DNA of 63,617 nucleotides, filler included, from Kipferlia bialata (Eukaryota), in NCBI GenBank assembly GCA_003568945.1. It is 4 parts of 4 records of this genome, joined end to end, with 100 filler letters (N's around TTAATTAATTAA, not from the genome) between each part and the next. Parts side by side here need not be neighbours in the genome. Positions count along the whole stretch, not along the records: positions 22,544 to 44,971 come from BDIP01000294.1; positions 45,072 to 56,376 come from BDIP01000352.1; positions 56,477 to 63,617 come from BDIP01000358.1; 1 more part is not named here. One strand, given 5' to 3'. Of this stretch, positions 22,661-63,569 are shown in pieces; positions within the stretch are counted from its first letter, which is position 1, and each line of letters begins with the position of its first letter. The position numbers and the translations under genes were made by a program. The notes under the pieces were generated by a model. That model saw only the letters and a list, made by a program, of their open reading frames with translations. It did no database searches and had not been told where the DNA came from.

Positions 22661-23557
22661 ATGTTTGGATTCGGGCGCCAACAGCCACCCCAGACTCCGG
22701 CACTATCTCTCCATGAGTGCAAGGTGTATATATGTAAATGTACTTATATATGCATACATTTGTACCTATACTCTACATACAACTACATACACACTATATA
22801 CTTACCACTCTCTGGATGAGTGCAAGATGTACTGACCCTCAGTCCATCCTGTCTGGTACGACTGCCTCTGACACAGTGTGAGCTGTACTCTCTCTCTCTC
22901 TATCTCTATCTACATATATACTCTAACTCACTGTCTCTCACTATATATATACTCACTCGAAGGCCATCCTGTCTGGTACGACTGCCTCTGACACAGTGTA
23001 TGCTGTACTCTCTCTCTCTATATATATATACTTACATTTGCATTCTCAGTGTCTCTCACTATATGTATACTCACTCTAAGGCCATCCTGTCTGGCACCGC
23101 TGCCTCTGACACAGTGTATACCATACTATACTGTACTACACTACATAAATGTACATACATTGACCCTCAGTCCATCCTGTCTGGCACCGCTGCCTCTGCC
23201 TCTGCCTCTGCCTCTGCGTCTGCCCCTGGCACCGTTGACGAGGCCCTGGATGCACTGACAAAGGGAATCTACTCACCCATGGTAAGTACACTTCATACTA
23301 CACATATTCCAATATACTCCATATAGGCACTGCGAAAAAGGTGCCACTATGTAATATACTCAGGTGTATACCACTGGTATATATATATATATATATATAT
23401 ACTTGTACTGACAAAGGGAATCTACTCACCCATGGTACACTGCATAGAAAACATAATCCATCATACACTCCATATAGGCACTGGGAAAGGGATGCTACTC
23501 ACCAATAGTGAGCCCACTACATACTACACTATAGGCAATACTCAGAGGTATACTGGG

Positions 23558-23590
<33 letters not shown>

Positions 23591-26500
23591 CTGCTACTGA
23601 CTAGTGGGTGCTACTCACCTGTAGTATGTGGATAATTCCATATGTACTAATTGCTGCACTATGAATCCTACATGTGGGTATATATACTGGAACTGACGCA
23701 GGGGATGCTTCCCACCACCAACGGTGACTGGTATTGTAATAATGTATACACTATATATACACTGTATGAATACTTGCCGGTCTCTTCTTTCCTTGTCGAT
23801 GTCTCTCTCCCTTTCAACCCCAACTCACACAAGGGCTTCCAGAACAATGTCCCAAGTCCAGACGACTACACCGTGCAGTTATGCAGGTATACACAGGCAT
23901 ATCAGATGCTAACTGTATTGTTAATTCAATAAATAGTGTATTATTATACTTACATATATATATAGCGTGCAGATATGCAGGTATATCAACAACTAATAAT
24001 TGTGTTGCTACATACATTCTCGGTATATACATGTATGAGGATATATATACATATACATATATATATATATATTAAAATACACAAACATTCACTTCCCAGA
24101 GATCCATGCCCTATACTGCTGCACATGAAAATATATATATATATCCCATTCACTAATACACAGAGACCCTGTCCTCCTGGGTCATGTCATGGCCCTCCTG
24201 GACCCTTCGACACATACCCCACAGACAGTCGAGTGAGTGTGTATATACTACACATGAGCTTACCTATACATTGAGTAGGGTAACCTGTGGTGCTAGTTCC
24301 ATTGTGTTCATTTATACCTGCACACCTATTGTACATACATATACTATGTATACTATATGTCCCGTCTATCCTGATCCCTAGAGCCACTCTTACCCTGCTC
24401 TATACGATTGCGGCCAGAAACCCTGATGCAGGGCAGTATCTTGTGCAGGTAGTACATATACATGTGATCTAGCCTCACTTTTGTATTTTTGTATTGATGA
24501 AGAATATTGTGTATGCTCTTAGAACTTTTGTGGTATGTGCGTGAGGGGTGTATTGGTTTCGTGTATTGCTATGTTCTGTACCCTTTGGTGTTCCGGGATC
24601 CCTCTTCAAGTGGTTGTGTATGCAGCCTACACCCCTTCTGTTGTCCAGCAGTGTGGGTATATACATATATATATACATACCCAATATCGACATGTACACG
24701 ATGAGCGTAACAACGATTGGTCGATGTGCTTCTACCTCGTGTTACAGTCAATCTATTGTTATCAGGGATGACTAGCCCAAATATCGAGATATATATCTAC
24801 TATCTATATATTTATATACTATCTAGATGTATATTCTTATGCCAGGCAGGACTGTTCCCACGTCTGACTGGGCTGGTGTCTGGGGCGGACGCACATGGTA
24901 TGTATGGTATATATATTTGTGAATATGAATGACAGACGTTGCCCTTGCTGTCCTTTAGTATGCTCTCTTTTCTCACTGCCAGTGAGCACTGCTCTCCGCA
25001 TAATAGTGACAGTGCTAGGCCAGCACCTATCCCTGGCCCTACCCGTCCTGCACACGCCTCTGTTCAAGGCCGTATTGGCCGCTAACCCAACCCACCACAG
25101 ATTGTACGTCAGTTTCTAACTCTTTCTGTCTCTCTGTATAATTCTCCTTCTCTCCTCATTCCAGTTCTATCTGCAGGGTAGTGAAAATCGTAGTCTACGG
25201 CCTCCTCTCCAAGGGAGAGAGAGACACACAGGGTGAGGTGTCTGAGGCGGACTACCATGCCATTAAGACAGTGCTGCCCACCCTAGGGGTCATATCCCAC
25301 TTGGGACACGGGGGATTCGACGCCATTGCAACCCTCCTGTCCTACAGTGAGATCAGGTACCCATAGTCTCTAACTCTATATACATAGTATCTAGTCTATA
25401 TAGTATCTAGTCCATAAAGTATCTATATAGTTAATTAATTTGTGTGTCCTACAGTGAGGAACCCCATATACTCTAGCCTATACAACTATGCCTAGTAGTT
25501 GTGCAATGCCTGCGTATACCCTTAGTCGTCTGTAATTATATTTGTGTGTCCTACAGTGAGATCAGGCAACCTTAGCCTCTAACTCTATGCCACTTGTCCT
25601 TGTGCAATTCGTGTGTACCTTTAGTAGTTTGTGTGTGTCTATATGAATCTCTAACCCTCAGCTGTGGTGAGCACTCTGCCTATATCATACTGTTATATAT
25701 ATTCTATTATATAGTATATATAATAGTGTTATAGTACTTGTATATTGTAATATCAGCTGCGGTGAGCACTCTGGTCTTCAGGACATCGCCGACGCTGGCC
25801 TGATACCCACACTCCTGAGGGCAAGGGAGAGACACCCTGGTCTCATGGACACAGAAACAGCCGGTATTTTTATGTATGGACTATATACTACGGATCGTGA
25901 TTGTATTTCACCGCAAGCGCCCTCATATACATGGATACCCTAGGTATACTGAGTGAGTATGAAGGGTACACATCAATACATTGATAGGTATCTATTGTCT
26001 GTTGTGTATACAATACACCGATAGTGGTCTATAGGACATGGAGACAGCAGGTGTATACGCATGTTTATTGACGATATGGTTCAAGTGGTTGTATGTGTGT
26101 ATATCATAGTGACATAAACTATAGTGACAGTAGCAACCCAGGTATATGAGGTTTCTTCCAGTTTATTGACGTATATGTACACATGTGTTGAGAGTCAGGG
26201 ATTTAGCGGTAACATGCGTCTCTCTCTTGTCTCTCTCTCTCCCTTCCCATTATAAATCCAATTGCATTGTATTGTCCCCCCCCCCCCCCTCTGTGTAACC
26301 TCAGCCTCTCTCGACCGTCTCAAGACACGGCTCAAGGCCAACCCCGATCTCCACCAGTACCTGCCCAAGGGGGGCATGGTGATTGAGGTATATGTACAGA
26401 TATGAAGAGAGAAATGCATGTGTTTACGGAGAGATAGAAGGTCATTCTTATTGGGATCTGTGTATGTAAAAGAGAAAGTGTCAGGGCCTCTCTCTGGTTG

Positions 26501-26692
26501 TATGTGTCCTTGATGTATGAGGCTGTCTATTCTCTCTCTACCCACACTGACTCATCTAACCCCCAGCGTACCCAGGTTCCAGTTGCCCGCCCATTCCATA
26601 CTTACGAGTACGGTACTCTCTTTCTCCCTTTCTCTCTCTCTCTTTTGCTCTCTCTCTTTATCTTTCTGTCTCTCTCTTTCTACCTTTCTCTC

Positions 26693-26735
<43 letters not shown>

Positions 26736-62455: not shown

Positions 62456-62491
<36 letters not shown>

Positions 62492-62693
62492 ACATGGCGG
62501 TGCCCAGCCACACGGCAAAGGAGATGGACGTGGCAGCTGGGGGTCAGGAATATAATAGGAGAGGGGGAGAGAGAGAGAGAGAGAGAGTAGGCAAAGGAGA
62601 TGGAGGTAGCAGCTGGGGTGAGATTATAAGATACATAAATAATTATCCATATAGGTATAGAGGGAGAGAGACAGAGATGGACGTGGTAGCTGG

Positions 62694-62733
<40 letters not shown>

Positions 62734-63569
62734 TAGAGATGAGCCCACCTGCAATGTCACTGCTGAAGTAGAAGTTGAGCACGCTGCCCAGCCTGGAGAA
62801 GGAGATGACAAGGCCGAAGGCAAGGGCAAGCTCCTTGCCCTGGTATTAGGGGTGTAGAGAGAGAGAGAGAGAGAAAGAATAGGACTCCATAAAACTATTT
62901 CAACAAGAGAAATTTAGGTAGATAGAGAGAAACAGACTCACCTTGAAGTTGTGTGAGACCACTGCGTTCTGGCAGACTGTCAGGTTGCCAAGGCCCACTC
63001 CATAGATGCCTGGGGTTATTTATATATATGAATACATACATATAAATATATGTAGACAGATGGTATGAGATGAACACTCCATAGATGCCTAGAGTTACAC
63101 ATTTATATACATACCAGTAGATAGTATGAGAGGGACACTCCATAGATTCCTAGGGGGAGACATAGATAGACAGCCCATACCTCTTCCAATGAGGATCCAT
63201 AAGTAGTTCTTGTTGGCACAGGCTGCGCTGAAGATGGAGAGACCTAAGGTAAGGGAGAGAGTAATGATACAGTATTGATGAAGCACCCATATAGTGAAAT
63301 GGAGGTCGATATACGACTTCAAAGAATGAGTGACATAGAGAGAGAGAGAGAGACAACACCCACCTACACACACGAATGACTGAAAGGCAAGTCCCCAACT
63401 ACTATGATACACAAAAACATATATTAACAAATGTATAAAACACACCTACACACACGAATGACTGGAAGGTGAGCCCCCCAAAGACGTGTCCCAGCTTGTC
63501 GATGGCATAGCCACCGAAGCACACACTGAGGAAGTTGGAGAAGGAGTACACAGAGTACATCATGTTGTA
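58161..63569 (-). CDS. MFSD1: MFS transporter, MFSD1-like lysosomal type (5'-truncated)
   Basis: Spliced: YNMMYSVYSFSNF..FGGYAIDKLG, LIGRGIYGVG, FKGKELALAFGLVISFSRLGSVLN, CIFPFVAIA, SPFLGKLIDRIGKR, IWSCVPLVV..VGTALSLVTAIQ. Stop at 58161-58163. Confidence 0.88.
58212..58884 (-). repeat. Acceptor echo array: 6 intronic copies plus real last exon start (VLNGTDKS)
   Basis: Each copy is CTCACCC..AG|GTCC..GGC..GACAAGTC followed mostly by (CT)n on the sense strand. Confidence 0.93.
59974..60388 (-). repeat. Acceptor echo array: 4 intronic copies plus real exon start (VVVFLIGCSYTVTAS)
   Basis: Real copy 59974-60019; echoes near 60066, 60150, 60236, 60333. Confidence 0.93.

What the first reader, a model, noticed from the sequence alone, without database searches (positions are those of the whole stretch)
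22832..63470. Pervasive splice-boundary echo system with strict polarity
Seen: in the ARM-Kelch, SET, VPS9 and MFSD1 genes many introns contain 1-7 partial copies (about 15-50 nt) of the adjacent exon edge with an intact splice signal. Copies of an exon 5' edge with branch+AG lie upstream of the exon (e.g. 22832, 26860, 30928, 45205, 46675, 52071, 53760, 55730, 58320, 59635, 60065, 61720). Copies of an exon 3' edge with GT lie downstream (e.g. 23408, 25546, 30337, 46110, 48211, 50965, 53593, 59000, 59304, 60867, 61466, 62245, 63360). Each echo copies only one of the exon's two splice sites. Inference: a recurrent local duplication process focused on intron-exon junctions drives intron growth here and builds arrays of decoy splice sites.
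Basis: partly seen in the sequence, partly recalled or inferred. Interest (0 to 1): 0.85.

Follow-up and report, generated by a model that had tools for sequence, protein, structure and literature searches.

The report
Stacked splice-junction copies in protist introns
Nearly half the introns in four genes of the protist Kipferlia are padded with roughly 100-base copies of the neighbouring exon edge and its splice site, which the one spliced message seen skips; this resembles the 'mirage' repeats of lancelets, but these copies were likely captured from diverged working versions of the same gene rather than simply doubled in place.

Summary
The echoes are real. In four genes (78 exons, 74 introns), 44 exon-start copies lie upstream and 23 exon-end copies downstream, and none in the flanking intron on the wrong side. 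Polarity is what any direct junction-spanning duplication gives, and the kind is known: amphioxus 'mirages'. Three features go beyond that description. (1) 34 of 74 introns carry echoes, in units of 100±20 nt added to a normal ~110-nt core. (2) Similarity stops at the splice dinucleotide: the exon part is ~93% identical with mostly synonymous differences (99 of 172), while the flank is diverged yet still a valid site (AG kept 42 of 43). (3) One spliced contig skips all 11 SET-gene echo sites, using exon-proximal sites as exon definition predicts. Best explanation (45%): aborted recombination against a diverged allele copies ~100 nt across a junction; out-of-register exchange stacks more. Plain duplication with fast-evolving flanks is the main rival. 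No decoy function is shown. Assembly artefact is unlikely but not excluded without long reads.

The parts
22661..31548 (+).
   Evidence: P0003 100% identical
22809..23108 (+). Intron 1: exon-1 tail echo (GT lost), then three exon-2 head echoes at 22843, 22964, 23082
23404..23506 (+). Two exon-2 tail echoes with GT
25445..25678 (+). Two exon-8 tail echoes, 96-nt core, one exon-9 head echo
26871..27351 (+). Two exon-12 head echoes upstream and one decayed tail echo downstream
28708..29909 (+). Tail echoes of exons 16, 17, 18 and head echoes of exons 18, 20
30335..30972 (+). Three exon-21 tail echoes (two 28 of 28 identical in the exon part, different donors) and an exon-23 head echo
45424..49249 (+). 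Host gene 2, SET domain, 14 exons seen; exon structure shown by one spliced contig with 12 GT..AG joints
45213..45355 (+). Two head echoes ahead of the first exon in the piece; the contig enters at the last copy (45424)
45636..46223 (+). Tail echo 45636, head echo 45810, tail echo 46111, head echo 46200; all skipped by the contig
46679..46783 (+). Two exon-4 head echoes, skipped
48212..48555 (+). Tail echoes of exons 11 (flank well kept) and 12 (GT to GC), skipped
49065..49087 (+). Head echo of the last SET exon; the contig's loose end matches the true copy at 49166
49756..55664 (+). Host gene 3, VPS9 domain, 24 exons in the piece; 6 of 23 introns with tabulated echoes
50964..51122 (+). Two 52-nt exon-6 tail echoes; the first has 6 of 7 differences synonymous but a near-identical flank
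52071..52593 (+). Exon-12 head echoes (52191, 52304; 52071 by eye) and an exon-13 head echo
53356..53999 (+). Exon-17 head echo, 61-nt exon-17 tail echo (3 of 3 differences synonymous), three exon-18 head echoes
55739..56324 (+). Seven head copies of the next VPS9 exon running into the end of the piece; the full exon is not present
58161..63569 (-). Host gene 4, MFS transporter (MFSD1-like), 15 exons; 12 of 14 introns with echoes
58325..59022 (-). Six head echoes of the last exon and one exon-14 tail echo in a 920-nt intron with a 129-nt core
59306..59811 (-). Exon-13: two tail echoes (100% in the exon part, unlike donors) and three head echoes
60066..60892 (-). Four exon-12 head echoes, head echoes of exons 10 and 11, exon-9 tail echo
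61469..63396 (-). Exon-7 tail and three heads, exon-5 tail and two heads, two exon-3 heads, exon-1 tail

Best explanation
The echoes are junction-spanning duplications of about 100 nt that the one spliced contig skips, and they were likely copied from a diverged working allele by aborted recombination and are likely tolerated because the spliceosome pairs sites across the exon. Steps. (1) Shown: each unit is 12-61 nt of exon edge, its splice signal and about 70 nt of intron, stacked around a normal-length core. (2) Inferred: a break in an exon invades the homologous chromosome, where only the exon still matches; synthesis runs about 100 nt over the junction and stops in the intron, often at a CT or AT run. 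(3) Inferred: the end fails to re-anneal on the short exon overlap and is end-joined, so the new junction becomes the working one and the old one is left as an echo with a different but valid flank. (4) Inferred: out-of-register exchange between exon parts adds further units, each taken from some allele's working junction. (5) Inferred: products holding both sites of an exon are purged. (6) Shown for one gene: the site nearest the exon is used. The echoes then decay with no function of their own (inferred).
For: Step profile: identity to the parent is 0.84-0.98 per position in the first 12 exon nt and AG is kept in 42 of 43, but only 25 of 43 match at -3, 13 of 23 at +3 and 6 of 23 at +6, against 0.83 expected from synonymous divergence (p 1e-4, 3e-3, 3e-9). 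With one echo per edge: AG 20 of 21, -3 12 of 21, +6 6 of 18. Branch point: the free N differs in 12 of 39, T in 2 and A in 3 (p=0.001); a branch motif is present in 37 of 43 echoes, 63 of 74 true sites and 21% of other intronic AGs. Exon differences are 99 of 172 synonymous vs 28% for neutral decay and 44% for a decaying copy of a constrained parent (p=2e-4); variants private to one echo are 32 of 64 synonymous. Units: 36 of 41 lie in 75-125 nt vs 28-38% under uniform breakpoints, and total length does not track the exon part. A symmetric search found a flank copy at only 13 of 45 exon-detected edges. CT runs follow 47% of 45 head ends vs 9% background. Echoes that lost AG or GT tend to carry more amino-acid changes (read; not tested). 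No mRNA-junction signal. Literature: failed SDSA plus end-joining makes tandem duplications (PMC8654963, passages); metamonads lack NHEJ and depend on HR (PMC8516963, passages); the species is reported diploid (PMC5874029, passages).
Against: No diverged allele was seen: each protein search returned a single cluster with one member and the contig shows no variants, so the donors would have to be historical or from other strains. Flank positions differ 2.5-4 times more than synonymous sites, which is a lot for alleles. After collapsing repeated events the synonymous excess over 44% is modest (76 of 145, p=0.02), and the 50% private figure is not clearly above 44%. Some echoes keep the parent's flank (51015, 52191, 26871, 48212), and 7 edges were found by flank only (about 3 expected by chance). 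A plain copy with 25% substitutions and 1-2 indels would be detected at 21-43%, matching the observed 29%. Microhomology could be scored at only 4 ends (1-3 nt). The worm duplications cited have a median near 1 kb and use the sister. Echoes were detected mainly on their exon part, which favours high exon identity.
Confidence: 0.45

Rival explanations
1. Ordinary same-chromosome tandem duplication (slippage or sister-templated), as proposed for mirages, followed by very fast slippage in the AT/CT-rich flanks and homogenisation of the exon part by conversion.
For: Units in an array often share the exonic breakpoint (41 edges, 46 distinct breakpoints) and spacer architecture (16 of 48 spacer pairs above the null 95th percentile). 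Echo introns are richer in dinucleotide repeats in 3 of 4 genes. The power check allows it. Known precedent (PMC3087553).
Against: Uniform decay at the 30% rate needed to explain the branch N would leave AG in about half of echoes and hit T and A as often; observed AG 42 of 43, T 2, A 3 of 39. Branch-to-AG distance stays 5-8 nt as at true sites. Amphioxus units keep clear intronic homology (supplement 4), whereas only 3 of 48 spacer pairs here reach 0.8.
Confidence: 0.27
2. Echoes are kept intact by continuing selection, because recombination between an echo and its parent exon often deletes the unit and puts the echo's site and codons into the working position.
For: Predicts valid sites and synonymous bias together; amphioxus mirages are length-unstable, even somatically (PMC3087553, passages).
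Against: Several echoes carry stops, many amino-acid changes or lost sites; exon homology is only 12-61 nt; no deletion molecules could be looked for (X1 laid 0 contigs).
Confidence: 0.14
3. Echoes are functional decoys or alternative sites that tune splicing or expression.
For: High retention of AG and branch motif.
Against: One contig skips all 11 SET echo sites; donors decay (GT 19 of 23); presence differs sharply between genes (0 of 13 vs 34 of 74 introns); use would give a premature stop in 68 of 71 cases (largely expected by chance).
Confidence: 0.08
4. Assembly artefact: diverged haplotypes or strains stacked in tandem by a short-read assembler; the 100-nt unit is close to a common read length.
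For: Valid but different flanks and synonymous differences are what stacked alleles would show; long CT runs link some units; one piece ends inside an array.
Against: A separately assembled DNA run holds 98% of 1043 sampled 31-mers of 45200-55100, while words spanning echo free ends are at least 4.0% of that stretch, so at least about half of those junction words are in the run (it may be the source sample). Up to seven distinct copies exceed two haplotypes; the published draft of the species matched its k-mer size estimate (PMC5874029, passages).
Confidence: 0.06

Closest known systems
Amphioxus 'mirages' (Adh3, globins BflGb6/9, troponin C, PGBD5; PMC3087553 passages and supplement 4, PMC3902484 passage; the original Adh3 paper was not read)
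   Same: Tandem copies of an intron/exon boundary, 5' or 3', most with AG or GT, that do not disturb the mRNA.
   Different: Described at a few animal loci as homogeneous minisatellites (units 81-100% alike, intron part clearly homologous; 10-160 bp). Here: 34 of 74 introns, many separate origins, units near 100 nt, flanks diverged but valid, exon parts synonymous-biased, in a protist with ~110-nt core introns.
Human F7 intron 7 VNTR (PMC1557585, abstract and Discussion)
   Same: Silent identical donor copies downstream; only the exon-proximal donor is used.
   Different: One locus, donors only, explained by 5'-to-3' scanning; scanning alone does not explain why the last of several acceptors is used here.
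Exon versus intron definition (PMC9225289 abstract; PMC2397502 passages)
   Same: Under exon definition the sites closest across the exon pair, as seen in the SET contig.
   Different: Those papers tie short introns and most protists to intron definition, which would choose the echo pair bounding the ~110-nt core.
Tandem duplications from failed SDSA plus end-joining (C. elegans helq-1; PMC8654963 passages)
   Same: Duplicates the tract copied during aborted synthesis.
   Different: Median about 1 kb, sister template, mutant background; nothing here tests the enzymes in Kipferlia.
Intron gain by tandem duplication of AGGT (PMC3265369, passages)
   Same: Duplication involving splice signals.
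   Different: That creates a new intron between used copies; here no new intron forms and the extra sites stay silent.

Membership tests
Mirage repeats | Direct copies that span an intron/exon boundary, adjacent to the true boundary | tested here: met
Mirage repeats | Either the 5' or the 3' boundary can be copied | tested here: met
   22 head edges and 19 tail edges
Mirage repeats | Many but not all copies keep AG/GT | tested here: met
   AG 42 of 43, GT 19 of 23
Mirage repeats | Normal mRNA despite the copies | tested here: met
   one spliced contig of one gene; rare isoforms cannot be seen in contigs
Mirage repeats | Minisatellite-like homogeneity over the whole unit, intron part included | tested here: not met
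   3 of 48 within-array spacer pairs reach 0.8, median 0.61, against the amphioxus alignment
Mirage repeats | Copy-number polymorphism or somatic instability | not testable with these tools
   no raw or long reads; X1 laid 0 contigs
Exon definition | Of competing sites, those closest across the exon are used | tested here: met
   11 SET echo sites skipped, 9 with intact AG/GT; survivors are a selected set
Exon definition | Mutating one site causes exon skipping rather than intron retention | not testable with these tools
   needs experiment or deep RNA reads
Recursive splicing (feature recalled, not from a call) | AG directly followed by a GT donor at the intronic site | tested here: not met
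   most head echoes do not begin with GT (sequences); order is always tail then head, so echoes do not form pseudo-exons (0 negative cores)
cDNA-templated insertion or conversion | Exon-exon junction sequence at the echo edge | tested here: not met
   echo flanks match the neighbouring exon no better than true sites do, apart from a weak excess at -3
Failed-SDSA tandem duplication | Microhomology at the new junction | tested here: inconclusive
   4 scorable ends, 1-3 nt vs null mean 0.66

The most novel reading that the evidence does not exclude
Kipferlia keeps replacing its splice junctions by ~100-nt homolog-templated captures, so its long introns are stacked archives of former working alleles, and this genome-scale load of intact competing sites is bearable only because a reduced excavate spliceosome pairs sites by exon definition despite ~110-nt core introns.
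Probability: 0.35. Interest if true: 0.8.

Novelty: new variant of a known kind. Interest (0 to 1): 0.58.

Why it matters
It offers a large natural experiment on splice-site choice: near-identical donors and acceptors sit 100 nt apart, and the exon-proximal one wins in a protist where intron definition is the textbook expectation and whose spliceosome is reported as reduced (87 of 174 proteins; PMC6679479, passages). It gives a concrete, quantised route to intron lengthening (core plus n x 100 nt). If the allele-capture reading holds, introns record past alleles and show how breaks are repaired in a lineage without NHEJ. Practically, echoes mislead gene prediction: public protein P0002 ends by reading through an echo.

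Tried and rejected
No whole genome is held, so generality beyond this window is untested. No RNA holder is on record; X2 is a guessed RNA run, used only for the joints it shows. Reads were laid on 45120-48980 only, so the other three genes have no RNA test, and their public proteins are predictions, not independent evidence. X1 laid 0 contigs: no evidence either way. Intron-only repeats in 6097 bp of echo-free introns: 2 hits, one of them a short-exon echo; this cannot show junction targeting, because diverged intron-only copies are undetectable. Unit length mod 3 is even (20/27/22). AG retention alone is not above expectation from the amino-acid-changing rate (p=0.08), so it shows no current selection. 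Rows dropped: echo 50558; six echoes with displaced or doubtful anchors; five non-adjacent hits. The MBOAT-like hand model has an open frame in every exon, but a few junctions are off by 1-3 nt. My label 'ACBP-like' for 57325-57820 was unsupported and dropped. Literature searches that showed no description of this in Kipferlia; general searches: (open-access library only; bioRxiv supplements not seen). Scan look-ups were empty.
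Full report
Setting. Three exon translations each hit one public protein at 100% identity, all named Kipferlia bialata. The window is four pieces joined by N-linkers, so the four host genes sit on three separate pieces. I built gene models by coordinate with GT..AG introns and no internal stop: 25, 14, 24 and 15 exons, 74 introns, median exon 73.5 nt, exon GC 0.57, intron GC 0.40.

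Observation. An unbiased scan for local direct repeats gave 144 pairs, nearly all at exon edges in 22.7-31 kb and 45-63.5 kb and almost none elsewhere. Exon-versus-intron alignment at 0.1% false hits per pair gave 44 heads upstream, 23 tails downstream, 5 decayed copies on the allowed side, 5 hits in non-adjacent introns, none in the flanking intron on the forbidden side and no whole-exon copy. A gapped test agreed (24 vs 0 and 20 vs 1 of 74). Seven more heads run into the end of a piece.

Polarity. A direct duplication of a segment that spans an acceptor must leave the partial exon upstream of the full one, and the mirror holds for a donor. Polarity therefore needs no special system. The informative point is that such copies are tolerated. 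One spliced contig of run X2 covers the SET gene with 12 GT..AG joints and no mismatch, and it skips all 11 echo sites in its path, 9 with intact AG or GT. It uses the first donor and the last acceptor. That is the exon-definition pattern (PMC9225289, abstract) and the opposite of what intron definition would give with a ~110-nt core; short-intron protists are generally assigned to intron definition (PMC2397502, passages). Limits: one contig, rare isoforms invisible, and survivors are pre-selected. An AT-to-GC boundary rule or exonic enhancers could give the same choice (my inference).

Intron growth. 34 of 74 introns carry echoes. Their median length is 306 nt vs 111 nt; the core between the last tail echo and the first head echo has median 118 nt (p=0.61 vs echo-free); units are 39% of intron bases; tail echoes always precede head echoes. 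Units are 100±20 nt; 36 of 41 (one per edge) lie in 75-125 nt vs 28-38% for uniform breakpoints, and the negative exon-spacer correlation (-0.43) is what a fixed total length gives. Selection for a minimal spacer could also narrow the range. A 13-intron gene on the same piece as gene 1 has none, so the process is gene-specific.

The unexpected part. A plain tandem copy should decay evenly. Instead identity is about 0.93 in the exon part, AG is kept in 42 of 43 and GT in 19 of 23, and it falls at once to 0.58 at -3, 0.57 at +3 and 0.26 at +6, near the baseline for unrelated sites. Ten tails with at least 95% exon identity average 0.38 in the next 12 flank nt, and eleven such heads 0.54. The flanks are still proper sites: branch motif in 37 of 43, same spacing as true sites, with changes at the free N (12 of 39) rather than T (2) or A (3). 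In the exon part 99 of 172 differences are synonymous (28% neutral; 44% for a decaying copy of a constrained parent; 76 of 145 after collapsing). So most divergence arose while the sequence was a working junction. Against over-reading: detection used the exon part; a symmetric search found flank copies at 13 of 45 edges plus 7 flank-only edges, which a plain copy with 25% change and 1-2 indels could also give; some echoes keep the parent's flank.

Mechanism. The reading I commit to (0.45) is capture from a diverged allele: an exonic break invades the homolog, about 100 nt are copied across the junction, synthesis stops in the intron (CT runs follow 47% of head ends vs 9% background, AT runs precede 23% of tails vs 9%), and end-joining leaves the old junction as an echo; out-of-register exchange then stacks units from working junctions. 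Failed SDSA plus end-joining is a known source of tandem duplications (PMC8654963, passages), and metamonads lack NHEJ (PMC8516963, passages). All of this is inferred; no donor allele was seen. Rivals: plain duplication with fast flanks (0.27), ongoing selection through pop-out (0.14), decoy function (0.08), assembly artefact (0.06; at least about half of echo junction words are in a separately assembled DNA run that may be the source sample). A cDNA origin is not supported.

Known kinds. A lead from the scan's notes pointed to amphioxus mirages, which I confirmed in print: tandem copies of either boundary, splice signals often kept, mRNA unaffected. This finding works like a mirage and meets four of its features, fails whole-unit homogeneity, and could not be tested for length polymorphism. 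The F7 VNTR is the donor-side precedent. My searches showed no account of this in Kipferlia.

Verdict. Real; a new variant of a known kind. The polarity is ordinary, but the density, the 100-nt quantum, the step at the splice dinucleotide and the exon-proximal choice in a short-intron protist are surprising and directly testable. Interest 0.58.

Noticed in passing
22444-22543, 44972-45071, 56377-56476: N-runs with a central six-frame-stop linker join four separate pieces; poly-C or poly-G runs sit at piece ends, and one piece ends inside an echo array.
   Followed up: partly
37375-37376: In the MBOAT-like gene (36867-39231) intron 3 appears to end in TG instead of AG behind a normal branch motif, with the frame open across it; a non-canonical acceptor or a base error.
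   Followed up: partly
56899-57100 and 57982-58179: A diverged ~200-nt direct repeat flanks a small four-exon plus-strand gene (57325-57820); the second copy overlaps the 3' end of the MFS gene.
   Followed up: partly
55915-55992: Public protein P0002 ends by translating an echo and its microsatellite, a likely annotation error caused by the array.
   Followed up: yes
1-55: Nine perfect TATAGG repeats at the window start, G-rich on the plus strand, so not oriented like a left telomere.
   Followed up: no
7671-19170: A long, intron-poor GC-rich gene that looks BEACH/WD40-like by eye (label recalled, not tested), with no echoes.
   Followed up: no
20890-21780: A minus-strand gene resembling a ubiquitin-like conjugating enzyme (label recalled, not tested) with short introns and no echoes.
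   Followed up: no
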